Shown here: positions 7,241 through 30,614 of the stretch, in pieces
How positions within the stretch are numbered: position 1 is the stretch's first letter
How the letters are laid out: each line of letters opens with the position of its first letter
DNA from: a virus
Lineage: Duplodnaviria; Heunggongvirae; Uroviricota; Caudoviricetes
Length of the DNA: 48,034 nt
IMG/VR virus record: IMGVR_UViG_3300029079_000001
Strand: one strand, 5' to 3'
The notes under the pieces: generated by a model
What the model saw: the letters and a program-made list of their open reading frames with translations, nothing else
Databases searched by the model: none
Told to the model about the DNA's origin: nothing
Position numbers and translations under genes: made by a program

Positions 7241-7270
7241 ATATCCCCTGCAATGCAGGGGATATTTCTT
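7241..7270. terminator. Hairpin between convergent genes (membrane ORF on + and sopB on -), probable bidirectional terminator
   Basis: ATATCCCCTGCA / TGCAGGGGATAT inverted repeat with T-rich flank. Confidence 0.55.
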
Positions 7271-8234
7271 AATTATCAGTAGATTGTTCCTCTAGTAACA
7301 ACTCAATTCTGCTTAGTATTTCTTTAGATATTTTTCGGCTATCAATTTTTATAGTTACAAAATTACCTTTATATCTAGCCGTGATCCCTTCCCCATATTT
7401 TTTCTCGTCTTTTGTTTTTTCCTCGTCGCCAACCAGAACAGAGTCAGATAATATTTGTATAATCCGTGAAGCTTCTAAATCCTCGCCGTTTTTTTTAATT
7501 GCCAGAAGATGATGAGCAGCATTGCTCATGGCAGCCATGTTTTTTTTGTAGACCTTAAACAAAGAATCTCCAGCACGAGCTGACAGTTCTCCTGGATGAT
7601 TGAAGATAGCTAATATATCTTTTGGTAGACCAGCTGTATTAATACAGCGAGTGATAATATTTCTGTCTATATTTTCAGCCTCGGCTAATGCTTTAACGTT
7701 ACCATCAAAGTCATTTAGCTTGCGTAAGTATCTCTTTCCTCTTTCGTATGCACTAATAGGCCTATAATCGTTACCAATTTGGGATAACCAATGCATCTGT
7801 TCATCGTCGAGATCACCTATTAAGACGCGATAGTCACATCCTGTTAATATCGCTGCTTTTCTTCTACGTGAGCCGTCAGCGACTTCAACGATTCCAGACA
7901 CTTTTCTGGCGAAAGCTGGATTTTGTTGTCCAGACGTTAGAAAAGATGGGATTAAATCGGCTAGAGAGGATTCATTTAATAAATCTTGATCGCGTTCATT
8001 ACCTAGCCATACCATTGTTGCCATTTCAACTTTATCTGCGGGAATTGTCTCTAACTTAAAGTTAACATTACGTCCGCATACTGGCAAAGTTATGCTGTTA
8101 CCGGTTAATGAACTCAGTTGACGTTTTAAATCACCAACCATAGGTGATACGGGCTGATGTTCAGGGGCATGATGATTATTACTCATAATGCGATTAATAT
8201 CTGGAGCATTTTTTAGAAGAGAGCGCTGTTTCAT
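7269..8234 (-). CDS. sopB: Partition protein SopB (ParB-type centromere-binding protein)
   Basis: 321 aa; ParB-like motif ...GSRRRKAAILTGCDYRVLIGDLDDEQ...; translationally coupled downstream of sopA. Confidence 0.8.
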   Translation of the reverse strand: MKQRSLLKNAPDINRIMSNNHHAPEHQPVSPMVGDLKRQLSSLTGNSITLPVCGRNVNFKLETIPADKVEMATMVWLGNERDQDLLNESSLADLIPSFLTSGQQNPAFARKVSGIVEVADGSRRRKAAILTGCDYRVLIGDLDDEQMHWLSQIGNDYRPISAYERGKRYLRKLNDFDGNVKALAEAENIDRNIITRCINTAGLPKDILAIFNHPGELSARAGDSLFKVYKKNMAAMSNAAHHLLAIKKNGEDLEASRIIQILSDSVLVGDEEKTKDEKKYGEGITARYKGNFVTIKIDSRKISKEILSRIELLLEEQSTDN

Positions 8235-9400
8235 TATTCGTTCTCCCAGCGAGGTTTTATTAGATCATCAAAAATTTCTCGGCAAACAGGGTCCCATATA
8301 GAAACAGCATTTCTCCATGCATTCAATGTTGAACGTTGGTTTGCTGCTTGTTCAAATACTGTTCTCATTTTTATCTGGCCTTTACCTACTTCATCGGTAA
8401 CGCGTACAACCTGACGTAATACCATTGATCCCCATGTATTTCTTATTTGTTCTTCCATCCATCGTGATTGATTCCCTGTAGTGAGACTATATTTAGTCAG
8501 AAGTAAGCGAACGGTTGGCTCAAATCCACCTAGGTCAACGCTTTCCAATAGATCGAGAAGCATTGTGAAAAACTGTAGAACAGAAGCGTAATCAAATAAT
8601 TCTGCAGGTGTAGCAACAACAATAACGTCAGCGGCACAAACAACGTTAATGGTTCCTGTACCGAGGTTCGGAGCACTATCTATAACGATAACATCGTAGT
8701 TATCCCAAACTGATTCAATAGCTGCGCGCAGCATAAGGTGTGGAGGATGAGGCAATTTACCCTGAGCATGATATTGCATGAGATCTGTTTCTATACGATG
8801 TAAAGCTAGGCAGCTAGGGATAATGTCTAGCCCAGGCCAACATGTTGGCTTTATAGCATATTCAGCGTTATCGCGTTCTCCTAAGTAAAATGGCAGTAAA
8901 GTATCCTCGGCATGGATATGTAAATCAGGAACATAACCGTGATACATAGAGGCCGTGCCTTGAGGATCGTTACCTTCAACCAAAAGAACACGATGACCTT
9001 GTAATGCTAACCATTGAGCTTGATGTACCGCAGACGATGTTTTATAAACGCCGCCTTTGTGTGACATAACGGCAAGCACAACAGGGTTTTTATCTTGTGG
9101 TCGTTGGTTTGGGTTGCCAAAAACTGCTCGCATACTGTTGATTTGATCTATGGTATAACCAGCACGACGTTCAATTCTTCCTCTCATTTCAAAGTCAGGT
9201 GCAGGTAAACGCCCGCTCTTCTCAGCATCTCTAATTGCTTGAGGAGTTACACCAATTAAATCTGCTACTTCAGTTATACCCCATCGGCGGGTGATACGCC
9301 GAGCTTCAGGACTATCATCACCGAATTGAGCGATTGCAATTGCTTGGGTCATTTCTTGACCTCTCGTAACACAATCTTGCAATAACTTTTTCAAAGACAT
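8234..9400 (-). CDS. sopA: Partition ATPase SopA (ParA/Walker-type, F SopA-like)
   Basis: 388 aa; deviant Walker A MSHKGGVYKTS; extensive similarity to recalled F-plasmid SopA (HTH ...AIAIAQFGDDSPEARRITRRW...). Confidence 0.9.
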   Translation of the reverse strand: MSLKKLLQDCVTRGQEMTQAIAIAQFGDDSPEARRITRRWGITEVADLIGVTPQAIRDAEKSGRLPAPDFEMRGRIERRAGYTIDQINSMRAVFGNPNQRPQDKNPVVLAVMSHKGGVYKTSSAVHQAQWLALQGHRVLLVEGNDPQGTASMYHGYVPDLHIHAEDTLLPFYLGERDNAEYAIKPTCWPGLDIIPSCLALHRIETDLMQYHAQGKLPHPPHLMLRAAIESVWDNYDVIVIDSAPNLGTGTINVVCAADVIVVATPAELFDYASVLQFFTMLLDLLESVDLGGFEPTVRLLLTKYSLTTGNQSRWMEEQIRNTWGSMVLRQVVRVTDEVGKGQIKMRTVFEQAANQRSTLNAWRNAVSIWDPVCREIFDDLIKPRWENE

Positions 9401-9421
9401 ACTGTCATCTCCAGCTTGTAA

Positions 9422-9499
9422 CTTTGCTTAATAATTAAATCTTTGCTTATTTCTAGCAAATTTGCATGAAAAAGGCAAAGCAAAACGAAAAACGCAAAG
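9422..9499. promoter_or_regulatory. sopAB promoter/operator region with CTTTGC/GCAAAG repeats
   Basis: CTTTGC at 9422 and 9441; GCAAA(G) at 9456, 9475, 9494; the F sopAB operator carries CTTTGC repeats bound by SopA. Confidence 0.55.
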
Positions 9500-9687
9500 G
9501 TGAATATTTGAGCTAAATCATCTTTTGTTCCCCTCCCGAAATGCATAAAACGAACAACGATATAATCATAACTAATTGATATTTATTATCTTTTTAAAGA
9601 AAGGAAATCATGTAAAACTAGGGAAACATGATAAGAATCATCAATGAGATACGTTTTCTCTATTAGTTCTCCCAATCTTACCAATAC

Positions 9688-9833
9688 GAGAACATAAACA
9701 GAGAACATAAAAATCAAGTAATGATACAAACACAATAAAGAACATAAATAAAGAATTAAAACCAATGCTAAATAAAGCAGTACATAATATGAGAACATTA
9801 CACCAAATGAGAACATTAATCAAGAACACAACG
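9688..9833. repeat. Six direct (A/G)AGAACA(T/C) iterons left of the telomere palindrome; probable protelomerase/regulatory binding sites (tos-like)
   Basis: GAGAACATAAAC (9688), GAGAACATAAAA (9701), AAGAACATAAAT (9738), GAGAACATTACA (9791), GAGAACATTAAT (9809), AAGAACACAACG (9822); inverted ATGTTCT copy about 9949 on the right side. Confidence 0.6.
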
Positions 9834-9835
9834 AA

Positions 9836-9877
9836 ACATAATTCCCCATTATACGCGCGTATAATGGGGAATTATGT
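9836..9877. other. telRL: Telomere resolution site (telRL-like): 42-bp perfect palindrome with central TACGCGCGTA
   Basis: ACATAATTCCCCATTATACGCGCGTATAATGGGGAATTATGT equals its own reverse complement; the 22-bp core CCATTATACGCGCGTATAATGG matches the recalled N15 telO; lies immediately upstream of telN. Confidence 0.8.
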
Positions 9878-10047
9878 CCTGATTTTTAGAACAAAGTCAA
9901 GGAACAAATTTAAACGTTCCGATATTGTGTTTTTGTTTATTATCCGTCATTATGTTCTGTTAGTTTGTGACTAAGTTAACGCGTTATTAGTTATCTTATT
10001 CTCAAATTGTGTTACGATAATCAGAGCTGATAATCTGGAGAGGAAAG

Positions 10048-11949
10048 ATGAGCAAAGTAAAAATCGGTGAATTAATAAACTCACTTGTTAGCGATGTTGA
10101 GTCAATAGATAACTCTGACCGTCCTCAAGGGGAAAAAACAAAAAAAATAAAGGCTGTTGCATTAAAATTTAAAAATGCATTATTTAATGACAAGCGAAAG
10201 TTTAGGGGGAAAGGATTAGAAAAAAGAATTACAGCCAACACATTCAATGCCTATATGAGCAGGGCCAGAAAACGGTTTGATGATAAACTTCATCATAGCT
10301 TTGAAAAAAATATACATCGCCTATCTGAAAAGTATCCTTTATATAATGAGGAGCTATTGTCATGGCTTTCTCTACCTGCTGCCGATATTCGCCAGAGAAT
10401 GTCAGCTTTACAGGCAAAATTAAAATTAATTCTCCCTTTATCAGAAGATTTATCTAATATCAGAATTGGTGATAACAAAAGTCATAATAAGTTATTAAAA
10501 TTATCAAATAAATATAAAGAGTGGCAATTCGCCATATCTGATTTAACTAGCGATAACTGGAAAGATAAGCGCGATTATTTATATAAATTACTACAGCAAG
10601 GATCTGCCTTACTTGAGGAGTTGAATCAGCTAAAAGTTAACCATGAGATTCTCTATCATCTTCAACTAAGCCCTGCCGAACGCGCATCTATCCAGCAACG
10701 ATGGGCGGACGTTCTGCACAATAAGAAACGTAACGTGGTGGTCATTGATTACCCTAAATATATGCAAGCTATTTACGATATTATAAATAGCCCTGCTACA
10801 TTAAATAATCTAAACACTCGTTCAGGTATGGCTCCTTTGGCATTTGCACTTGCAGCATTGTCAGGAAGACGAATGATTGAGATTATGTATCAAGGTACAT
10901 TTACTGTTTCTGGTAAGTATACCGTTGATTTTTTAGGCCAAGCAAAAAAAAGAACTTCTGATGATATAACCAGAAAAATATATACATTATGCGAAGCAAA
11001 AACATTTGTTTATTTAATAAATGTACTTCGCTCATGCCCAGCAGCATCTGATTTTGATGATGTCGTTAAAGGTTATGGAGATAACGACACACGCTCTGAA
11101 AACGGACGGATTAATGCCATATTAGCAAAGGCTTTTAACCCGTGGGTTAAATCATTTTTCAAAGATGACCGCCGTGTTTATAAAGATAGTCGTGCTATTT
11201 ATGCCCGTATTGCGTATGAAATGTTTTTCCGCGTAGATCCTCGTTGGAAAAACGTAGATGAGGATGTTTTCTTTATGGAAATTTTAGGCCATGACGATGA
11301 AAACACTCAATTACACTATAAGCAATTCAAGCTGGCCAACTTCTCAAAGACATGGAGGCCAAATACTGGAAACGAAAATACCAGGCTGGAAGCATTGCAG
11401 CAGCTTGATGACGAAATGCCAGGATTCGCCAGAGGAGATGCCGGGGTTCGTCTGCATAACACAGTTAAGCAGCTGGTAGAGCAGGACCCCTCTATAAAAA
11501 TCACGAACAGCACTCTAAGAGCATTCAAATTTAGCCCTACAATGATTAGTCGATACCTGGAATTTGCTGCTGATGCTCTGGGGCAATTTGTTGGCGAAAA
11601 TGGACAATGGCAGCTGAAAATAGATTCTCCAGAAATCGTTATGCCTGACGAAGAAGAGCTGGAAGCAATACCTGAACAGACGGATGAATTATCAGAGGAT
11701 GACGATCTGGATGACGACGAAATTGAGATAGAGGAAGAGGAAGAGGAAGAGGAAGAGAGCGTAGAAGAACAGCAACCGCCCGCGCCTTCTTCACCTGTAT
11801 CTAAGCCGGTATTTAAGCCCGTGAGAAATATTGGTGATGGCTCATACGTTGTTGAGTTTCATTATAATGGCCAGAATTATGCTTGGTCCGGCATTGCAAA
11901 CAGCCCTATATCAGCAATGCAGTTAGCATGGCTGACATATTTCGGATAA
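10048..11949 (+). CDS. telN: Protelomerase TelN (telomere resolvase)
   Basis: 633 aa; N15 TelN-like sequence throughout with an acidic EEEEEEE C-terminal region; directly adjacent to the palindromic target. Confidence 0.9.
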   Translation: MSKVKIGELINSLVSDVESIDNSDRPQGEKTKKIKAVALKFKNALFNDKRKFRGKGLEKRITANTFNAYMSRARKRFDDKLHHSFEKNIHRLSEKYPLYNEELLSWLSLPAADIRQRMSALQAKLKLILPLSEDLSNIRIGDNKSHNKLLKLSNKYKEWQFAISDLTSDNWKDKRDYLYKLLQQGSALLEELNQLKVNHEILYHLQLSPAERASIQQRWADVLHNKKRNVVVIDYPKYMQAIYDIINSPATLNNLNTRSGMAPLAFALAALSGRRMIEIMYQGTFTVSGKYTVDFLGQAKKRTSDDITRKIYTLCEAKTFVYLINVLRSCPAASDFDDVVKGYGDNDTRSENGRINAILAKAFNPWVKSFFKDDRRVYKDSRAIYARIAYEMFFRVDPRWKNVDEDVFFMEILGHDDENTQLHYKQFKLANFSKTWRPNTGNENTRLEALQQLDDEMPGFARGDAGVRLHNTVKQLVEQDPSIKITNSTLRAFKFSPTMISRYLEFAADALGQFVGENGQWQLKIDSPEIVMPDEEELEAIPEQTDELSEDDDLDDDEIEIEEEEEEEEESVEEQQPPAPSSPVSKPVFKPVRNIGDGSYVVEFHYNGQNYAWSGIANSPISAMQLAWLTYFG

Positions 11950-17100: not shown

Positions 17101-18150
17101 GATTTCATAGCCAGTCCGCAGGCCGGTATTCCCTTTTCCTTCTGTGGCAGATTTCCGGTCATTATCCAGTGCGCAGGTGATTTTTGCCGCCGGGTACATG
17201 TTTACCAGTTGTTCCACAACATGAACCATGTTGTTAGCGGATACAGCGACAACCACAGCGTCAAAGCGTTTATCTTTTTTCGTGGCAAGCCAGATGGATG
17301 CACCAGTAGCAAAACCTTCTGTAACAGCGATGTTTTGCGCCCCTTTCAGCTCACCGATAACAAAGCAGGCACCGACGAAATCGCCGCTGGTTACTGCGCT
17401 GGTCTGGTATTTCCCACCTTGTTTGTCGATTCGCTGCCAACCCACAATACGACCATCATAACGACCGTCCAGGTGAGCCAGAGGGATAGCCATATATGTG
17501 GTTGGCCCCCGGCTCCATTTCGCACTGTCGTGACTGGTCACGCGACGCACATCACATGAACTAAAAACGTCACGAATACCTTTTTTAATCGCATATGGCC
17601 ATGAGCCGTCTTCAGCCTGAGCATGTTCCCACGCGCTGTGGAATGCCAGCCATCCCAGCAAACGTTCATGGTCCATTTGGTTGTTTTTCAGGTCATTAAT
17701 TCGTTTTTGTTCTTCACGGCGACGACGTGCTTCGGCCTGACGTTCTATTCTTTCCCGTTCTTCTTCCGGTTGTGCGACCACGGTCGCATTATTCCGTTGT
17801 TGCTCACGGCGATATTCAGAAAACAGGAAGGAGAAACCGCTCCATGAGCCAGCATCGCTGCCTTTATGGACGAAGTTAATGAACGGGTAATCAATCCCTT
17901 TGCTGTGTTCCAGCCTGGAGTAAATTTCTACGCGTCCTTTCAGGCTCTTTTCGAGAGCTTCTGGAGATGTTTTATTGTATGAAGAGTAACGCTCAACCCC
18001 CCCGCGAGGGTTGAGTTGGATGTTGTCGGAACAGGCAGACCAGTTGATACCAGCCATCTGTGCCAGCTCGGTTAGTTCATCCCGTGCTGCTTCAATTAGC
18101 GAGAACGGATCGCTGCCAAAGCGATCCGCATAGAAATCGTTTAATGTCAT
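14155..18150 (-). CDS. repA: Replication protein RepA (multidomain primase-helicase, N15 RepA-like)
   Basis: 1331 aa; Walker A GMGSGKST in the helicase part; position and size match N15 repA; sopC-like palindrome #1 lies inside it at 17771..17788. Confidence 0.85.
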   Translation of the reverse strand: MTLNDFYADRFGSDPFSLIEAARDELTELAQMAGINWSACSDNIQLNPRGGVERYSSYNKTSPEALEKSLKGRVEIYSRLEHSKGIDYPFINFVHKGSDAGSWSGFSFLFSEYRREQQRNNATVVAQPEEERERIERQAEARRRREEQKRINDLKNNQMDHERLLGWLAFHSAWEHAQAEDGSWPYAIKKGIRDVFSSCDVRRVTSHDSAKWSRGPTTYMAIPLAHLDGRYDGRIVGWQRIDKQGGKYQTSAVTSGDFVGACFVIGELKGAQNIAVTEGFATGASIWLATKKDKRFDAVVVAVSANNMVHVVEQLVNMYPAAKITCALDNDRKSATEGKGNTGLRTGYEILSKFNDVRCVYPTFEDDPQMECSDFNDLHKLRGLRETARQLFATANRLKTGTDLLSLTLNRLKTIKRDNRRTFAKELLRAVDIGMLTCPVPNSPSDLFNMFCIVLREMGLENIYRATVKDHIARRLNKKCRIAQAPRSFSERITDPNKRPQHITYKRFETSVMTDDVLKYVQSLQGIVIVRAGMGSGKSTGLLRPLMHSSERGISVAHRVSLIGGLWEMMTEGKGVKADILHYQDPGYQEIAPYASKLTICINSIVKNCWQPLMRQHDYFGFDEATQGLRAVLSGRAMENPVAVFNTLIDALARTEQHPIMVDADANDLLVDLAELAMKRREELGLPAWLQIHVIELPVDVRNRETGEPIRVFYTEKDRIMTEVVKAVSDGEKIMLATDSSTFAEDVTATLRMHFPGKKFLCVNQKNKPEPEVEAFTNQPKKMVKKYDGLIYSPSISSGVSIEQKHFDRHFGMFCGEVVPSDAVQMLRRDRTAKEFIIGFDKARAKRETDPQKIERAFAQALLATAGMNGELTDVVFDGDRISMGVANTDFTRMKIKAAAIEATARNDYASNMICIMHSDGYKVSPLATDYAANDIGKDLRKEARDIVWEQTLDLHLNTETPQESEREELLKKRALTLEEQAKLVRWDIENELKLPVEEGTLKFYFDGARDKVRRYETMLLDEVTARRYDREEAAINFTYAYRQAGQWQYFVVTAMTREQADDVFKTKFPGIIDHKVKATPTVEVGARGFYALKSATLRQYFIDCGINPETMTGEATQERLKFARDNLMTAERRDLLNNVLHIGGFMTPKGKPKVPEALFKNICDSLGLKTGKRRGRDGDKRPTLRFVEPESAAFMLDILVQRQKDGLTLKTRKAEKTAIEMDRDLDLNIYMDDKTRSTNEQVQNAPHSVISEALAVLPVAVPESWAMSALSSEELATMSSWSSASIAMTFASLYLTEFMDHLSSNELRRLREYITGNSSCSYEEQGAFYG
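17771..17788. repeat. sopC-like centromere palindrome #1 (inside repA)
   Basis: TGTGCGACCACGGTCGCA. Confidence 0.6.
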
Positions 18151-20012: not shown

Positions 20013-20258
20013 ATGTTCAGGAAACCGTCGAAGCCAGAATTAAGGTATTCGGGGGTAAGAAATGAATATGTTATCTGGTGTCCAACTTGTGGTTACAGGA
20101 CACGACCAGATAGTAATAAGCAGTCTGTAATTGCCGATTGGTATTTATCAAATCAGCCAGGTAATAAGCATATAGAAAATCTTTGGATTAAGCGTTACTT
20201 GGAAATCAGAGAGGGTGCGACCGTGGTCGCACAAGAAAATGAAAATAACGCCATTTAA
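20013..20258 (+). CDS. Small zinc-ribbon protein
   Basis: ATG at 20013; CxxC pair in ...VIWCPTCGYRTRPD...; sopC-like site #2 lies near its 3' end. Confidence 0.45.
   Translation: MFRKPSKPELRYSGVRNEYVIWCPTCGYRTRPDSNKQSVIADWYLSNQPGNKHIENLWIKRYLEIREGATVVAQENENNAI
20215..20232. repeat. sopC-like centromere palindrome #2
   Basis: GTGCGACCGTGGTCGCAC. Confidence 0.6.
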
Positions 20259-24800: not shown

Positions 24801-24818
24801 TGTGCGACCACGGTCGCA
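24801..24818. repeat. sopC-like centromere palindrome #3
   Basis: GTGCGACCACGGTCGCAC (intergenic). Confidence 0.6.
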
Positions 24819-24904
24819 CAGCACAAAAACGAAAAAGCTTGGCAAAATGACGGTTTTTAGTTATTGTTTTGTTAAGTTGGGTTTTTTGTACCCAACAGCC
24901 AACA

Positions 24905-26235: not shown

Positions 26236-26508
26236 ATGAAGATGGATGAACGATACAGCAGTGCATCTTATGGTAGCGCTGGTCTTGCTGCGTTCTTTGC
26301 CAGCCTGTCATTGCAGGATTGGGGCTTCATTATCGGTGTCGCGTTCAGCATTATCCTCGGTGTGCTTACATACCGGCTCAATAAACGCGAGCAGATGAAG
26401 CGCACGAAGATATTGCAGGACATATTGGATAAAACTAATACCAATAATCTTTCTGCTACAGCGATGGTTATTGGAGAGCTGGGGAAGAGAGCACCGAAGG
26501 AAATATGA
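26236..26508 (+). CDS. Class II holin (pinholin S21-like), MKM dual-start motif
   Basis: 90 aa; two TM segments ([27 protein letters not shown]); start overlaps into the endolysin gene. Confidence 0.7.
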
Positions 26509-27005
26509 TGCAGTCATCATTACGCAAAGCTGTCACAGTTGCTATTGGTGGCGGGGCTATTGCCATAGCGTCTATGCTCATCACTGGCCCAAGTGGTAAC
26601 GATGGTCTGGAAGGTGTCAGTTACATACCATACAAAGATATTGTTGGCGTATGGACTGTATGTTACGGACACACCGGAAAAGACATCATGCTAGGTAAAA
26701 CGTATACCGAAGCAGAATGCAAAGCTCTCCTGAATAAAGACCTTGCCACTGTCGCCAGACAAATTAATCCGTACATCAAAGTCGATATACCGGAAACAAC
26801 GCGCGGCGCTCTTTACTCGTTCGTTTACAACGTGGGCGCTGGCAATTTCAGAACATCGACGCTTCTTCGCAAAATAAACCAGGGCGATATCAAGGGCGCA
26901 TGTGACCAGCTACGTCGCTGGACATACGCTGGCGGTAAGCAATGGAAAGGGCTGATGACTCGCCGTGAGATTGAGCGTGAAGTCTGTTTGCGGGGGCAAC
27001 AATGA
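26505..27005 (+). CDS. SAR endolysin (phage lysozyme, T4-lysozyme-like fold)
   Basis: 166 aa; Gly/Ala-rich N-terminal signal-anchor [19 protein letters not shown]; lysozyme core ...[11 protein letters not shown]... Confidence 0.8.
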
Positions 27006-27093
27006 GCATGATTTGCTTTTTCATGGCAGCGTTGCTCGCATTCAATGGCAACGATGCGTGGCCGTGGTTTCTGGCCGTTGGAGTGTTGATGTC

Positions 27094-27555
27094 ATGAGTC
27101 GGTTAACCGCGATTATCTCCGCTCTGGTTATCTGCATCATCGTCTGCCTGTCATGGGCTGTTAATCATTACCGTGATAACGCCATCTCCTACAAAGAGCA
27201 GCGCGACAAAAACGCCAGAGAGTTGAAGCTGGCGAACGCCACCATCAAAGACATGCAGATCCGCCAGCGTGATGTAGCGGCTCTGGATGCCAAATACACG
27301 AAGGACTTAGCTGATGCTAAAAAGCAGCTTGATGATTTGCAGCGTTGTGTTCGCACTGGCAAGTGTGGGCTGCACCTCAACGCCAGATGTCCCGCGAACG
27401 GAGCGACCATCACCGGCGGCCTGGGCGATGCTACCGGCCCCCGACTTACTGACTCCGCTGAACGGGATTATTTCATCCTCAGAGAGCGAATCGTCACAGT
27501 GACGAAACAGGTTGGATATTTGCAGGAGTACATCAGGACGCAATGCCTGAATTAA
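27094..27555 (+). CDS. Rz: Spanin inner-membrane subunit Rz
   Basis: 153 aa from ATG 27094; N-terminal [17 protein letters not shown]; coiled-coil body; closely matches recalled lambda Rz. Confidence 0.85.
27314..27502 (+). CDS. Rz1: Spanin outer-membrane lipoprotein Rz1 (embedded in Rz, +1 frame)
   Basis: 62 aa; lipobox LASVGC; Pro-rich. Confidence 0.8.
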
Positions 27556-27596
27556 TTCCTCTGCATCAAAAACTAACTTAATTTGTTGGATAGTGA

Positions 27597-27923
27597 ATGA
27601 AAATTTATATTTCCGGACCAATGACGGGATATGAGAATTTTAATCGTGACGCCTTTAATAAAGAGGCTGAGCGTTTATCACGTCATGCTCACGTAGTCCT
27701 GAACCCGGCGATTTTTCCTAATGGCCTGACACAACGTGCACACATGGAGATTTGCTTTGCAATGCTTCGCTGTGCTGATGCTATTTTGATGCTTCCTGGC
27801 TGGAAAACATCTGCCGGAGCCACTGCGGATTACCATTACGCATACAAGATGGGGATGCCGGTATTCACTACGCTGAATTATCCGCCAGCTTGTTCCTCGT
27901 GTGCGACCGTGGTCGCACGCTAA
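27597..27923 (+). CDS. DUF4406-like protein (nucleoside 2-deoxyribosyltransferase-like fold)
   Basis: MKIYISGPMTG... N-terminal signature; sopC-like site #4 lies in its last codons. Confidence 0.55.
   Translation: MKIYISGPMTGYENFNRDAFNKEAERLSRHAHVVLNPAIFPNGLTQRAHMEICFAMLRCADAILMLPGWKTSAGATADYHYAYKMGMPVFTTLNYPPACSSCATVVAR
27901..27918. repeat. sopC-like centromere palindrome #4
   Basis: GTGCGACCGTGGTCGCAC. Confidence 0.6.
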
Positions 27924-27928
27924 ATTCC

Positions 27929-27996
27929 GCGCTGCATCGTCGCCGTATTCCCGCATTAACTATGACCGTAGCCCGACGGGGAACTCCTCTGCGCGA
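27929..27996. repeat. Left copy of a ~68-bp direct repeat flanking the AT-rich cassette
   Basis: GCGCTGCATCGTCGCCGTATTCCCGCATTAACTATGACCGTAGCCCGACGGGGAACTCCTCTGCGCGAG; second copy at 29713..29780 with 4 mismatches. Confidence 0.8.
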
Positions 27997-28120
27997 GTGT
28001 GCGGAAATAATCAAAAACGATGCACACCGGGTTTTTACCGCGCTATTGATTCGCGGGTTTGTCCCTCATGCTCGCCAGTCCTGTGCGAGGGTGGAAGAAA
28101 CAGGGCATGTATTCAGGAGC

Positions 28121-28138
28121 GTGCGACCGTGGTTGCAC
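28121..28138. repeat. sopC-like centromere palindrome #5 (one mismatch)
   Basis: GTGCGACCGTGGTTGCAC. Confidence 0.5.
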
Positions 28139-28161
28139 GGTATCTTTGTCAGGAGGTTTTG

Positions 28162-29022
28162 ATGAAAGAGTTGCAAAAAATTAATTCAATAATGGAAAGG
28201 TTAAGTGCTCTTGAGCGTAAGCTGGACGATTGTGGAAAGCTGTGTGTTGAAAAGCAAAATGAGCTTTACCGAGAATTTTTTACAATCGTAAGTGAGCTGA
28301 TGCCAATTGTTAATAACTGCCTGATGACATCCAGATTTTTTAATGTCGATGCTACTACATCCAGAAAATTTTCTGTGAAAATTCAAGAAAGAGTTTCTGG
28401 TAGTGTGACAAGAGAGATGGCTGAACAGTTGGTGGCAATGAGCAATAAAACAAAAAGAAAAAAGGCATTGCTTGTAACAGCAAATCAGCTTTCAGGGCGC
28501 GTTGACTTTCAGGTCAGACAGGGTGGGCGTGTACTGGTAAATGATGCGTTCGTTGGACGTAGCTTTAGTCCTTACTCGATGAAATATGATGTTGATGCAG
28601 ATGATCAGGATATCAGCATTTCCTGGAAATCTGAGACAGCAGGGATTGTATTAACAGCAGAGTTGTTGAGTGATGATAAAAATGATGTCCAGCATCATTT
28701 GGACGAAAAGAATCATATTTCTGAAATTTGTATGAAGCCACGCAGCGGAATGACTTTATTGTCACGCACTCTTGCTGCTGGCTTTTCTGCACCGGAAAAA
28801 CGTGTGCTTCTGGTAGTGCCTGAAGATGCAGATATTCGACCACTGAATGGCTGTGATGTTATTAGTGCAAAAACATTGCATACCCGCGTCATTCCTGTAC
28901 CGGATGTGGTCATTATTGATGATGTTGAGAAATGCAAGTCTGTTTCCTCAACTGCCACAATCAAGCGAATTTTACGTTGTAGCACGTCGGCTGTTGTATT
29001 CCGGAAGCAGTTACATAACTAA
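28162..29022 (+). CDS. Hypothetical cytoplasmic protein (287 aa), AT-rich cassette gene 1
   Basis: ATG 28162 with AGGAGG RBS (the track's 27901 start reads through the repeat); N-terminal coiled-coil-like segment; no recognisable family. Confidence 0.6.
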   Translation: MKELQKINSIMERLSALERKLDDCGKLCVEKQNELYREFFTIVSELMPIVNNCLMTSRFFNVDATTSRKFSVKIQERVSGSVTREMAEQLVAMSNKTKRKKALLVTANQLSGRVDFQVRQGGRVLVNDAFVGRSFSPYSMKYDVDADDQDISISWKSETAGIVLTAELLSDDKNDVQHHLDEKNHISEICMKPRSGMTLLSRTLAAGFSAPEKRVLLVVPEDADIRPLNGCDVISAKTLHTRVIPVPDVVIIDDVEKCKSVSSTATIKRILRCSTSAVVFRKQLHN

Positions 29023-29146
29023 CCAGTTTTGTTTTGCAGAACATCCTCAACTAAAAGCTTATAGAAAGAGAACCTGAGATATTTTTTCTGTCTCTCGTAG
29101 TTGTTTATTTTTTTTCGAACAGGCTTACAACTTACAGGATATAAAC

Positions 29147-29596
29147 ATGCAAGAAGAAGCAAATAAAATTCTTGTTGATTTATTGAAGAAGGCCAGCGAT
29201 GGAATTGATTCCGCCATTGCATTCAGTCAGGCACAGATTCCGGATGTTGTTCATCAGTTGCTGGTATGGAATATGGTTGATAGCCTGATTAAAACATTAA
29301 TAGCCATTTCAACAATCCCGCTAGTTATTTGGTTTATGAAGAAACAGTACCAAAAAGTTGAAATTGGTAAGTTCGATAATGAAGGATGGTCATGGGAAAA
29401 ATGGAAGCCTAAATACAAACAGACTATGATTTGGGAAAGTAACGGTGAGATTAGTTTTCTTATCTTACCATTAGCAGCAGTTTTTGTTCTGTGGGTAAGT
29501 TTTATTATTGCTGTAGTAACCAATATGACATGGTTAAAAATCTGGTTGGCACCTAAGTTATATCTAATCGAATACGCAGCATCACTAATTAAATAG
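29147..29596 (+). CDS. Hypothetical membrane protein (149 aa, two TM segments), AT-rich cassette gene 2
   Basis: TM segments LIKTLIAISTIPLVIWF and ISFLILPLAAVFVLWVSFIIAVV. Confidence 0.55.
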   Translation: MQEEANKILVDLLKKASDGIDSAIAFSQAQIPDVVHQLLVWNMVDSLIKTLIAISTIPLVIWFMKKQYQKVEIGKFDNEGWSWEKWKPKYKQTMIWESNGEISFLILPLAAVFVLWVSFIIAVVTNMTWLKIWLAPKLYLIEYAASLIK

Positions 29597-29712
29597 TCCA
29601 TTACAAAAGCCATTCGCTACTGAGTGGCTTTGATAATGGCTTATACCCTACACGGGATAACTTAACTGATATCCCTTTTAACGGATAAATGTATTCAAGC
29701 CTGACACATCAT

Positions 29713-29780
29713 GCGCTGTATCGTCGCTGTATTCCCGCATTAACCATGACCGTAGCCTGACGGGGAACTCCTCTGCGCGA
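29713..29780. repeat. Right copy of the ~68-bp direct repeat
   Basis: GCGCTGTATCGTCGCTGTATTCCCGCATTAACCATGACCGTAGCCTGACGGGGAACTCCTCTGCGCGAG. Confidence 0.8.
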
Positions 29781-29805
29781 GCATGCAGGATGTTGATTCA
29801 TTGCT

Positions 29806-29823
29806 GTGCGACCGTGGTCGCAC
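29806..29823. repeat. sopC-like centromere palindrome #6
   Basis: GTGCGACCGTGGTCGCAC. Confidence 0.6.
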
Positions 29824-29879
29824 GACGCAGGTCTGTCAGACATTGAATTCATTGCGAATAAACCAGAACGCCTGCGGGT

Positions 29880-30094
29880 CCTTTCCGGCGATCCGGCAGG
29901 CTACGGGGCGGAAGGCGCGCGGGTTTTCGCTATTTATGAAAATTTTCCGGTTTAAGGCGTTTCCGTTCTTCTTCGCCGTAACTTAATGTTTTTATTTAAA
30001 ACACCCCCTGAAAAGAAAGGAAACGACAGATGCTGAAAACGGGCTTTTTGGCCTCTGTCGTTTCCTTTCTCTGTTTTTGTCCGTGGAATGAACA
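29880..30094. other. cos: cos region (cosQ/cosN/cosB-like) upstream of Nu1
   Basis: ...ACGGGGCGGAAGGCGCGCGGGTTTTCGCTATTTATGAAAATTTTCCGGTTTAAGGCG... is near-identical to the recalled lambda left end, except that the 12-nt cosN position reads GGGCGGAAGGCG. Confidence 0.7.
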
Positions 30095-30614
30095 ATGGAA
30101 GTCAACAAAAAGCAGCTGGCTGATATTTTCGGTGCGAGTATCCGTACCATTCAGAACTGGCAGGAGCAGGGAATGCCCGTTCTGCGAGGCGGTGGCAAGG
30201 GTAATGAGGTGCTTTATGATTCTGCCGCCGTCATAAAATGGTATGCCGAAAGGGATGCTGAAATTGAGAACGAAAAGCTGCGCCGGGAGGTTGAAGAACT
30301 GCGGCTGGCCAGCGAGGCAGATCTTCACCCCGGAACACTTGAATTTGAGCGCCATCGCCTGACCCGTGCTCAGGCGACGGCGCAGGAACTGAAAAATGCC
30401 AAAGAATCGGCTGAAGTGGTGGAAACCGCATTCTGTACTTTCGTGCTGTCGCGTATAGCAAGGGAAATATCCAGTATTCTCGACGGTATTCCTCTGTCGG
30501 TGCAGCGACGTTTTCCTGAGCTGGATAACCGGCATATTGATTTCCTGAAACGGGATATCATCAAAGCCATGAACAAAGCAGCCGCGCTGGATGAACTGAT
30601 ACCGGGGTTGCTGA

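What the first reader, a model, noticed from the sequence alone, without database searches (positions are those of the whole stretch)
28162..29596. AT-rich two-gene cassette (cytoplasmic protein plus small membrane protein) bracketed by direct repeats in the lysis-cos moron hotspot
Between the spanin genes and cos lies a low-GC island unlike the flanking lambda-like DNA. It encodes a 287-aa soluble protein with a coiled-coil-like N-terminus and a 149-aa two-TM membrane protein, neither with a recognisable family. It is bracketed by two copies of a ~68-bp direct repeat (27929..27996 and 29713..29780), each next to a centromere-like palindrome. A sensor-like cytoplasmic protein paired with a small membrane protein in a prophage accessory hotspot suggests superinfection exclusion or abortive infection, though nothing in the sequence proves a function.
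Basis: partly seen in the sequence, partly recalled or inferred. Interest (0 to 1): 0.75.

Follow-up and report, generated by a model that had tools for sequence, protein, structure and literature searches.

The report
Accessory gene pair beside phage cos
A low-GC block of two uncharacterised accessory genes sits in the known cargo hotspot between the lysis genes and cos of an N15-like phage-plasmid. It is real, but the two genes also occur apart in other phages, and nothing shows that they form a defence system.

Summary
A 38% GC block (28140-29600) carries gene A (28162-29022, 286 aa) and gene B (29147-29596, 149 aa, two TM helices). A 74-nt direct repeat (68/74 identical) brackets it. Three copies of GTGCGACCGTGGTCGCAC lie nearby. 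That palindrome matches the published SopB-binding IR sites of phage-plasmid N15, and the window encodes SopA, SopB and a protelomerase.

The block is dispensable cargo: N15 holds a Dcm methylase and gp59 in this slot, and other N15-like plasmids are empty or carry deletion remnants. The repeats are not insertion scars. They are copies of a non-coding lambdoid segment found in lambda and in 4592 of 5426 complete E. coli genomes.

A and B are separable. B (phrog_3054) is a widespread stand-alone gene, found after N/ral in pL operons (Sf6 gp34, HK639 gp44) and in N4-like and Vibrio phages. A is an Escherichia-restricted orphan that also occurs without B. Neither matches Pfam, NCBIfam, PADLOC or a solved structure.

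Most likely these are two independent accessory genes transcribed with the late operon. B plausibly acts at the inner membrane, perhaps in exclusion. Function is untested.

The parts
27597..27923 (+). DUF4406 gene (homologue of N15 gene 57), the last conserved gene before the variable slot. A deletion of about 28 bp relative to close relatives fuses its 3' end to IR P1.
   Evidence: Pfam DUF4406 E 4.5e-31. Alignments and sequence. N15 annotation.
27901..27918 (.). IR P1, an N15-type SopB-binding centromere palindrome GTGCGACCGTGGTCGCAC.
   Evidence: Exact match. Same as the published IR1/IR4 sequence in the opposite orientation. SopB is encoded at 7269-8234.
27929..28002 (.). Direct repeat R, left copy.
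   Evidence: 74 nt, 68/74 identical to 29713-29786. Homologous to lambda 46869-46975.
28003..28115 (.). Segment Y, conserved lambdoid non-coding DNA that follows R in mEp460, lambda and most E. coli lambdoid prophages.
   Evidence: Alignment with mEp460. R-Y is found in 4592 of 5426 complete E. coli genomes.
28121..28138 (.). IR P2 (GTGCGACCGTGGTTGCAC, one mismatch), followed by GGTATCTTTGTC. It marks the 5' boundary of the cassette, 23 nt upstream of the ATG of A (28162). It also forms a hairpin that looks like a weak terminator.
   Evidence: It is conserved in front of A or B in every context examined, including integrated prophages.
28162..29022 (+). Gene A, 286 aa, soluble. Predicted N-terminal helical hairpin (1-55), beta domain (100-169) and C-terminal alpha/beta domain (197-282). 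The C-terminal domain has a degenerate Walker A (KPRSGMT) and a Walker-B-like VVIIDD.
   Evidence: phrog_2571. Orphan in a scan of 1.84 billion representatives. AF2 model with pLDDT 56. Weak P-loop fold hits. dN/dS 0.24-0.35.
29023..29146 (+). A-B spacer, 33% GC. No convincing promoter or terminator. AGGA Shine-Dalgarno for B.
29147..29596 (+). Gene B, 149 aa, with two TM helices. The N-terminal (1-45) and C-terminal (125-149) helices are conserved. The loop and TM2 are variable.
   Evidence: phrog_3054. 175 phage records and 488 protein clusters. Alignments A2, A4 and A6. Hydropathy and charge counts. AF2 model with pLDDT 70.
29597..29712 (.). Segment X, conserved lambdoid non-coding DNA that precedes R in mEp460. 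It contains stem-loop 29606-29631, whose T-run lies on the minus strand.
   Evidence: Alignment with mEp460 starts at the stop codon of B. Sequence.
29713..29786 (.). Direct repeat R, right copy.
29806..29823 (.). IR P3, an N15-type SopB-binding palindrome, exact match.
   Evidence: Present in L010 and L012 but absent from PhiR46_1, which has Y here instead.
29906..29917 (.). Inferred cosN 12-mer GGGCGGAAGGCG. The cassette ends about 310 bp upstream of it.
   Evidence: Alignment to the right ends of the N15 and lambda records. Nu1 starts at 30095.

Best explanation
The block is dispensable mosaic cargo in the hypervariable slot between the lysis genes and cos of an N15-like linear phage-plasmid. 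It is made of two single-gene modules that are also found apart, not an obligate two-gene system.

Shown:
- The flanking repeats are two copies of a ubiquitous lambdoid non-coding segment. The usual order is X-R-Y. Here it is R-Y-[IR-A-B]-X-R. This segment gives homology for swapping cargo among lambdoid phages and N15-like plasmids.
- The palindromes are SopB centromere sites of the plasmid's partition system.
- A and B each occur without the other.

Inferred:
- A and B have no promoter of their own. They lie on the late-operon strand with only a weak hairpin upstream. They are therefore probably made mainly late in lytic growth by Q-antiterminated transcription running from the lysis genes through cos.

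Best guess for function (low confidence, about 0.3):
- B acts on its own as a small inner-membrane protein. Its conserved N- and C-terminal helices lie on one face of the membrane. It may protect the infected or lysogenic cell at the envelope, for example by excluding superinfecting phage.
- A is a cytoplasmic accessory protein with a catalytically degenerate P-loop-like domain. Its role cannot yet be named.
For: Replicon type: SopB HTH, ParA-type SopA, protelomerase and RepA-like genes. The nearest records are Ravinvirus YDC107_1 and PhiR46_1.

Variable slot:
- N15 has Dcm plus IR4 plus gp59 after DUF4406.
- N15-like plasmid L027 has only IR-R-Y before cos.
- L028 has IR-R-Y-IR and no genes.
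- L029, YDC107_1 and L024 carry three different deletion remnants.
- Only 28 of 5426 complete E. coli genomes carry the full block, on N15-like plasmids and in chromosomal lambdoid prophages.

Repeats: mEp460 carries single-copy X-R-Y, and homology to X begins at the stop codon of B. R is in lambda between bor and lambdap78. R-Y is in 4592 of 5426 E. coli genomes, median two copies.

Separability:
- B stands alone after N/ral in pL operons of Sf6, HK639, Oslo and an E. coli prophage.
- B stands alone in the Rz-cos slot in L024.
- B is also found in an N4-like phage, a Vibrio myovirus (opposite strand, inside the tail genes) and a Klebsiella phage.
- A stands alone between Rz and Nu1 in L008 and L009, 80% identical, dN/dS 0.24.
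- The B allele next to a 95%-identical A in L026 is only 80% identical, and B alleles are mosaics.

Expression: promoter-like sites are no more frequent than in shuffled sequence, and none lies upstream of A or B. The only + strand terminator-like site upstream is the IR P2 hairpin.

B architecture: two TM segments, conserved termini, and a Lys/Arg-rich variable loop.
Against: - A-B adjacency recurs in N15-like plasmids, in chromosomal prophages and in a 73%-diverged pseudogenised copy, L016. A without B is rare, with only two contigs found. Functional coupling is therefore not excluded.
- Only 12.8 kb of the L008 prophage was seen, so a B copy elsewhere in that genome cannot be ruled out.
- Absence of a promoter rests on a consensus scan only. 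AT-rich DNA often carries cryptic promoters.
- No experiment or homology supports exclusion or any other activity.
- The topology of B rests on charge counts only.
- The model of A has low confidence (pLDDT 56).
Confidence: 0.5

Rival explanations
1. A and B form a two-component prophage defence. Cytoplasmic A senses infection and activates membrane protein B, giving abortive infection or exclusion in the manner of RexA/RexB.
For: - A and B are adjacent, in the same order and with the same spacer, in all 28 complete E. coli genomes that carry the block, in many N15-like contigs and in a diverged pseudogenised copy.
- A has a multi-domain 'sensor-like' build with a P-loop-like domain.
- B is a small membrane protein.
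- The slot is an accessory hotspot.
Against: - B is a stand-alone gene in many phages and in two different operons, and A occurs alone.
- The B allele has been exchanged next to a conserved A.
- There are no PADLOC hits.
- No promoter of their own was found, and the genes lie on the late-operon strand.
- The Walker A lysine of A is replaced in all homologues.
- The cassette decays repeatedly.
Confidence: 0.15
2. The genes serve the phage during lytic growth rather than the lysogen. B, and perhaps A, is a counter-defence or host-takeover factor that neutralises a membrane-associated host or prophage system.
For: - B homologues sit in early pL operons beside ral, abc2, gam, kil and cIII.
- B is also in the early region of a strictly virulent N4-like phage.
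- In the window the genes lie on the late transcript.
- Non-synonymous changes outnumber synonymous ones in the loop and TM2 of B between close alleles, as expected for an arms-race interface.
Against: - No similarity to any known anti-defence protein.
- In a Vibrio myovirus B is a lone opposite-strand gene inside the tail cluster, a typical layout for a lysogen-expressed moron.
- The cassette is dispensable and often lost.
Confidence: 0.2
3. B is a lysis accessory, such as a second holin, an antiholin or a lysis-timing factor, placed next to the lysis cassette.
For: B has two TM helices like class II holins. Here and in L024 it sits just downstream of holin, lysozyme and Rz.
Against: - No holin Pfam or PHROG hit.
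- The phage already has a holin at 26236-26508.
- Most homologues are in early operons or elsewhere, far from lysis genes.
Confidence: 0.05
4. The block is a discrete mobile element that inserted here, and the direct repeats are its target-site duplication or att sites.
For: A 74-nt direct repeat flanks a low-GC block.
Against: - The repeat is a pre-existing, ubiquitous lambdoid sequence that is single-copy in lambda, mEp460 and thousands of prophages.
- The segments between the repeats and the genes (Y and X) are also standard lambdoid DNA.
- No recombinase or transposase lies in the block.
- Empty N15-like sites read R-Y-cos, not a single R joined to the right flank.
Confidence: 0.03

Closest known systems
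Right-end accessory region of N15 (genes 57-59 with centromere site IR4) and of Ravinvirus relatives PhiR46_1 and YDC107_1
   Same: Same replicon type and same slot: Rz, then DUF4406, then cargo, then an IR site, then cos. PhiR46_1 carries the same A-B block at 96-97% identity. YDC107_1 carries a deletion remnant.
   Different: N15 carries a Dcm methyltransferase and gp59 in place of A and B, and has one IR there. The window has three.
The lambda bor-to-cos region and equivalent Rz-cos cargo of lambdoid prophages (bor/iss, Rha, KilA-N, TonB-like, DUF1398, ylcI)
   Same: Same position in the late region. It shares the conserved R-Y segment (lambda 46869-46975) and has variable cargo with deviant composition.
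   Different: bor/iss is on the opposite strand and, from my own knowledge, is expressed in the lysogen from its own promoter. A and B are co-oriented with the late operon, show no detectable promoter, and have no known function.
phrog_3054 proteins: Sf6 gp34, HK639 gp44, vB_SosS_Oslo gp47, CUS-3 and HK633 homologues
   Same: B is a full-length homologue, 40-77% identical, with the same two-TM build and the same conserved termini.
   Different: Those genes stand alone in the early pL operon after N/ral, without any A-like neighbour. None has a described function, and literature searches found nothing.
Single-gene superinfection-exclusion membrane proteins (T4 Imm, HK97 gp15, P22 SieA), named from my own knowledge
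   Same: They are small inner-membrane proteins encoded as stand-alone accessory genes in varied genome positions, in both temperate and virulent phages. The distribution of B looks like this.
   Different: No sequence or profile similarity: B hits only unknown-function PHROGs at E<=1. Exclusion activity has not been tested.
Lambda RexA/RexB-type two-gene abortive infection (own knowledge)
   Same: A cytoplasmic protein paired with a membrane protein, carried by a temperate phage.
   Different: The Rex genes are co-inherited and expressed in the lysogen with the repressor. A and B are separable, lie on the late strand, and have no PADLOC match.

Membership tests
N15-type SopB centromere site (IR1-IR4) | 18-bp palindrome GTGCGACC-NN-GGTCGCAC as published for N15 IR1-IR4 | tested here: met
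   27901, 29806, 20215 and 24802 match exactly. 28121 and 17772 have one mismatch. Published sequences are in PMC7205306 Table 4. N15 IR3 and IR4 were found with the same pattern.
N15-type SopB centromere site (IR1-IR4) | Cognate SopA/SopB partition genes on the same replicon | tested here: met
   Pfam SoPB_HTH (E 7e-25) at 7269-8234 and a ParA-type ATPase at 8234-9400, with a protelomerase at 10048-11949.
N15-type SopB centromere site (IR1-IR4) | SopB binding and a contribution to plasmid stability | not testable with these tools
   Needs ChIP or EMSA and stability assays. The IR upstream of A also persists in integrated prophages that have no other IR, so a second role is possible.
Moron (autonomous accessory gene of lambdoid phages, in the sense of Juhala/Hendrix; own knowledge) | Present in some relatives and absent from others at the same position, with deviant base composition | tested here: met
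Moron (autonomous accessory gene of lambdoid phages, in the sense of Juhala/Hendrix; own knowledge) | Own promoter and own terminator allowing expression from the repressed prophage | tested here: inconclusive
   The consensus scan found no promoter upstream of A or B. The stem-loop after B belongs to conserved segment X, and its T-run is on the minus strand. A scan cannot exclude weak or non-sigma-70 promoters.
Known anti-phage defence systems (PADLOC-DB 2.0) | Profile match of the component proteins to a catalogued system | tested here: not met
   For A, only a DrmMII match at E 0.023 (11.6 bits), which is noise. For B, no hit at E<=1.
Obligate two-gene system (sensor plus effector) | The two genes are co-inherited and neither is found functional without the other | tested here: not met
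   B alone. A alone, intact and under purifying selection. Caveat: only part of the A-only prophage was seen.
P-loop NTPase (C-terminal domain of A) | Walker A motif GxxxxGK[ST] | tested here: not met
   The sequence is KPRSGMTLL. Met197 replaces the lysine and is invariant in all homologues.
P-loop NTPase (C-terminal domain of A) | Walker B (hhhhD[DE]) and a RecA-like/P-loop alpha/beta fold | tested here: inconclusive
Holin (class II) | Profile membership in a holin family, and a position with the endolysin as the phage's holin | tested here: not met
   No holin family hit for B or its distant homologues. The phage's holin is 26236-26508. Most B homologues lie far from lysis genes.
Inserted mobile element with target-site duplication or att repeats | Repeats created by or specific to the insertion, plus a recombinase | tested here: not met
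   The repeat pre-exists as single-copy lambdoid DNA. There is no recombinase in the block.
PHROG families phrog_2571 (A) and phrog_3054 (B) | Full-length profile match | tested here: met
   A: E 2.3e-163, residues 1-286 on profile positions 1-291. B: E 2.1e-57, residues 1-149 on profile positions 1-137. Both families are annotated 'unknown function'.

The most novel reading that the evidence does not exclude
B, alone or helped by A, is the founding member of a widespread but unrecognised family of single-protein phage exclusion or counter-defence factors. Its conserved terminal helices would engage a conserved envelope target, and its fast-evolving loop would set specificity. In N15-like plasmids its expression could be gated by the SopB-bound centromere site that always sits just upstream of the cassette.
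Probability: 0.15. Interest if true: 0.6.

Novelty: new member of a known kind. Interest (0 to 1): 0.3.

Why it matters
The direct value is modest. The analysis documents one more cargo block in a well-known lambdoid hotspot and corrects the idea that its repeats or its gene pairing define a system.

Three points could be useful:
- **A cheap target for functional work.** B belongs to a conserved, broadly distributed phage membrane-protein family (phrog_3054) with no assigned function. Its conserved termini and fast-evolving loop make it a good candidate for testing. Cultivable carriers exist, including PhiR46_1, Sf6 and HK639.
- **Gene flow between phage-plasmids and phages.** The same block, with its SopB-type palindrome, is shared at about 94% identity between N15-like plasmids and integrated lambdoid prophages. 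This is a concrete example of exchange through shared non-coding homology.
- **More centromere sites than N15.** The window has three IR sites clustered at the right end and six in total, against four in N15. This bears on how dispersed centromeres evolve.

Tried and rejected
- **Family searches.** Pfam, NCBIfam and PADLOC scans of A and B gave no usable hits. A Pfam scan of ten diverse B homologues gave only noise.
- **PDB profile searches.** For A the best hit was E 0.37. For B there were no hits.
- **Scan of 1.84 billion representatives with A.** It returned only its own cluster, fragments, and one distant beta-domain relative, P0145.
- **Structure of B.** AF2 gave pLDDT 70, and Foldseek against BFVD gave nothing below E 1.
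- **Rfam.** A scan of 27000-30500 gave only chance matches, so the conserved R/Y/X segments are not a known RNA family.
- **RNA fold of 27895-28165.** The z-score was -1.8. The fold is dominated by pairing between the two identical palindromes and is not informative.
- **Literature.** Searches for Sf6 gp34, accession numbers, PHROG ids and PhiR46_1 found nothing. The Ravin 2008 paper on Sop and late expression is not held.
- **Rejected readings.** I rejected a mobile element with target-site duplication, a holin, an active NTPase, and the 373-aa ORF from GTG 27901. That ORF runs through conserved non-coding R-Y, while the homologues and the Shine-Dalgarno support ATG 28162.
- **A count I did not use.** A 74-nt megablast count of R (66 genomes) is an undercount caused by the 28-nt word requirement. 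The 187-nt blastn count is the one to use.
Full report
**What the window is**

The 48,034-bp window is a complete contig. It encodes SopB (SoPB_HTH, E 7e-25), a ParA-type SopA, a protelomerase (four TelK domains) and a large RepA-like protein. It also has a holin, a lysozyme and Rz at 26236-27555. Lambda-type Nu1 and terminase A genes start at 30095. Its nearest phage records are PhiR46_1 and the Ravinvirus YDC107_1. It is therefore an N15-like linear phage-plasmid. The finding lies at the right end of the virion map, between Rz and cos. By alignment to the right ends of the N15 and lambda records, I place the cosN 12-mer at 29906-29917.

**Checking the observation**

- **GC content.** 28162-29596 is 38.4% GC, the window as a whole is 49.6%, and the neighbouring segments are 50-55%. 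Only 3.8% of equal-sized windows are as low.
- **Gene A.** It runs 28162-29022 and encodes 286 aa, with AGGAGG five bases upstream of the ATG.
- **Gene B.** It runs 29147-29596 and encodes 149 aa, with two hydrophobic segments.
- **Coding status.** Both are real genes. dN/dS for A is 0.24-0.35, and for B it is 0.14 against phage Oslo.
- **Direct repeat.** It is 74 nt, 68/74 identical, at 27929-28002 and 29713-29786.
- **Palindrome.** GTGCGACCGTGGTCGCAC occurs three times around the block (27901, 28121 with one mismatch, 29806) and six times in the window. Chance predicts 0.04.

**What the palindromes are**

They match the published SopB-binding centromere sites IR1-IR4 of N15, GTGCGACC-NN-GGTCGCAC (PMC7205306 Table 4). 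The same pattern finds N15's IR3 upstream of its late promoter. It also finds IR4 downstream of gene 58, where the record annotates a putative terminator hairpin. From my own recollection of Ravin, Rech and Lane 2008 (J Bacteriol 190:3538; cited in PMC11652158; the text is not held), N15 IR2 and IR3 also promote late gene expression.

**What the direct repeats are**

They are not insertion scars. Phage mEp460 has one copy of a unit X-R-Y.
- Its left part, X, aligns with window 29597-29712, starting exactly at the stop codon of B.
- Its right part, Y, aligns with window 28003-28110.

The window therefore reads DUF4406-IR-R-Y-IR-[A-B]-X-R-IR-cos. PhiR46_1 reads ...A-B-X-R-Y-cos. R lies in lambda at 46869-46975, between bor and lambdap78. 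R-Y is found in 4592 of 5426 complete E. coli genomes, with a median of two copies, including K-12. No Rfam family matches it. It is generic lambdoid late-region DNA that provides homology for exchanging whatever lies next to it.

**Is the block variable cargo?**

Yes.
- N15 has DUF4406 (gene 57), then a Dcm methyltransferase, IR4 and gp59 in this slot.
- One N15-like plasmid has only IR-R-Y before cos (L027).
- One has IR-R-Y-IR and no genes (L028).
- Three different deletion remnants exist, with junctions at 28514|29873 in L029, 28746|29574 in YDC107_1, and 28150|29089 in L024.

The full block is in 28 of 5426 complete E. coli genomes, on 46-62 kb plasmids and also in integrated chromosomal lambdoid prophages. 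One example is E. coli AR_0085, which reads Rz, iss, R-Y, IR, A, B, X, IS5, X-R-Y, ylcI, Nu1. It also occurs on E. albertii, E. fergusonii and Shigella sonnei plasmids.

**Are A and B a pair?**

The evidence says they are separable.

B belongs to phrog_3054 (E 2e-57). It has 175 phage records and 488 protein clusters. It is a lone gene in several settings:
- immediately after N/ral in the pL operon of Sf6 (gp34), HK639 (gp44), Oslo (gp47) and an E. coli prophage, the last at 88% nucleotide identity;
- alone in the Rz-cos slot of another prophage;
- in the early region of an N4-like virulent phage;
- as an opposite-strand gene inside the tail cluster of a Vibrio myovirus;
- in a Klebsiella siphovirus.

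No neighbour is shared among these contexts.

A (phrog_2571) is an orphan. Among 1.84 billion representatives there is only its own cluster, some fragments and one distant relative of its beta domain. That relative, P0145, fuses the domain to a different helical region. It sits in the Q-holin slot of another prophage. An 80%-identical, intact A lies alone between Rz and Nu1 in an integrated lambdoid prophage, and no B is present in the 12.8 kb seen. In AR_0085, A is 95% identical to the window's A, but B is only 80% identical. B alleles are mosaics of two N-terminal types and at least three loop types.

On the other side, A-B adjacency is the rule wherever A occurs. It even survives in a 73%-diverged pseudogenised copy. 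Coupling is therefore unproven rather than disproved.

**What the proteins look like**

- **A.** It is soluble (maximum 19-residue hydropathy 1.15). The AF2 model is poor (pLDDT 56). It shows an N-terminal helical hairpin, a six-strand beta domain and a C-terminal alpha/beta domain. The C-terminal domain carries KPRSGMT where a Walker A would be, with the lysine replaced by an invariant Met. It also has a conserved VVIIDD. Fold and profile hits to P-loop domains are weak. I read this as a degenerate, probably non-catalytic P-loop-like domain, at low confidence.
- **B.** It has a long N-terminal helix running into TM1, a Lys/Arg-rich loop, TM2 and a C-terminal helix (pLDDT 70). Residues 1-45 and 125-149 are strongly conserved from Vibrio to enterobacterial phages, while the TM segments and the loop vary in sequence and length. 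The N-tail is net acidic and the loop is net basic. By the positive-inside rule this suggests that both conserved termini face the periplasm. This is an inference only.
- **Selection on B.** Between the window and a close allele (L010), codons 68-127 carry 24.5 non-synonymous and 3.5 synonymous changes (pN 0.168, pS 0.102). The rest of the gene carries no non-synonymous changes. This suggests diversifying selection or relaxed constraint on the loop and TM2.

**Expression**

No sigma-70-like site lies upstream of A or B, and such sites are not enriched in the region (4 found, 5.7 expected). The only + strand terminator-like element upstream is the IR P2 hairpin with a weak T tail. The stem-loop after B belongs to segment X, and its T-run is on the minus strand. 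Both genes are co-oriented with the lysis and terminase genes. I infer that they are transcribed with the Q-antiterminated late operon. This has not been shown.

**An unexplained detail**

IR P2 plus GGTATCTTTGTC precedes the cassette in every context.
- It is the only IR in the 49-kb integrated prophage of AR_0085.
- It is perfectly conserved in the A-only prophage although its flanks have diverged.
- It precedes B in the A-deleted form.

It may be a relic of N15-like origin, a hairpin with its own role, or a control site.

**Verdict**

The block is ordinary in kind: dispensable mosaic cargo in a known lambdoid and N15 hotspot, flanked by generic recombination-prone DNA and by the plasmid's own centromere sites. 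The 'sensor plus membrane effector defence' reading is not supported as a system. Exclusion by B alone, or a lytic-cycle counter-defence role, remains plausible and testable. I rate interest at 0.3 and novelty as a new member of a known kind.

Noticed in passing
window 17772-17789, 20215-20232, 24802-24819, 27901-27918, 28121-28138, 29806-29823: The window has six N15-type SopB IR sites, against the four described for N15 (IR1-IR4). Three of them cluster within 1.9 kb at the right end.
   Followed up: partly
L026 28887-28904, L008 5960-5977, L024 3956-3973: The IR palindrome just upstream of the cassette is retained in integrated chromosomal lambdoid prophages. It is the only IR in 49 kb of the E. 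coli AR_0085 prophage. It is perfect in L008 although its flanks have diverged. Its role there is unknown.
   Followed up: partly
window 29348-29527 (B codons 68-127): Between close B alleles (window and L010), non-synonymous changes outnumber synonymous ones in the loop and TM2 (24.5 against 3.5). There are no non-synonymous changes in the rest of the gene. Alleles are also intragenic mosaics.
   Followed up: partly
window 27880-27923: A deletion of about 28 bp relative to L010 fuses the 3' end of the DUF4406 gene to IR P1. The protein is 108 aa here instead of 103 aa, and its last codons are encoded by the palindrome.
   Followed up: yes
L016 3892-5924 (GCA_964241885.1, 91-kb contig): This is a 73%-identical copy of DUF4406-R-Y-A-B-X-R in which A and B are broken by stops and frameshifts. 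It lies in a contig with very few called genes. The organism was not identified.
   Followed up: partly
L021 5001-5546 (protein P0145): The beta domain of A (residues 101-209, 32% identity) recurs fused to a different helical C-terminus (phrog_2091). The gene sits in the Q-holin slot of another lambdoid prophage, so A is itself a domain mosaic.
   Followed up: partly
window 29906-29917: The inferred cohesive-end 12-mer is GGGCGGAAGGCG. It differs in its last six bases from that of N15 (GGGCGGCGTCCG) and from that of lambda (GGGCGGCGACCT, own knowledge), while the flanks are conserved.
   Followed up: partly
window about 9200-10800: This is the lowest-GC stretch of the window (32.5%). It lies between the sopA start and telN and is lower than the cassette itself. 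I did not examine it.
   Followed up: no
window 29606-29631: The stem-loop right after B has its T-run on the minus strand. It looks like a terminator for leftward transcripts. It is part of the conserved lambdoid segment X, not of the cassette.
   Followed up: partly
L008 3238-3876 and L010 473-1071: Toxin-antitoxin pairs sit in the late regions of relatives. HicA/HicB lies between the methylase and the holin in the A-only lambdoid prophage. A Gp49 (RelE/ParE-like) plus HTH pair lies upstream of the late promoter in N15-like contigs.
   Followed up: no
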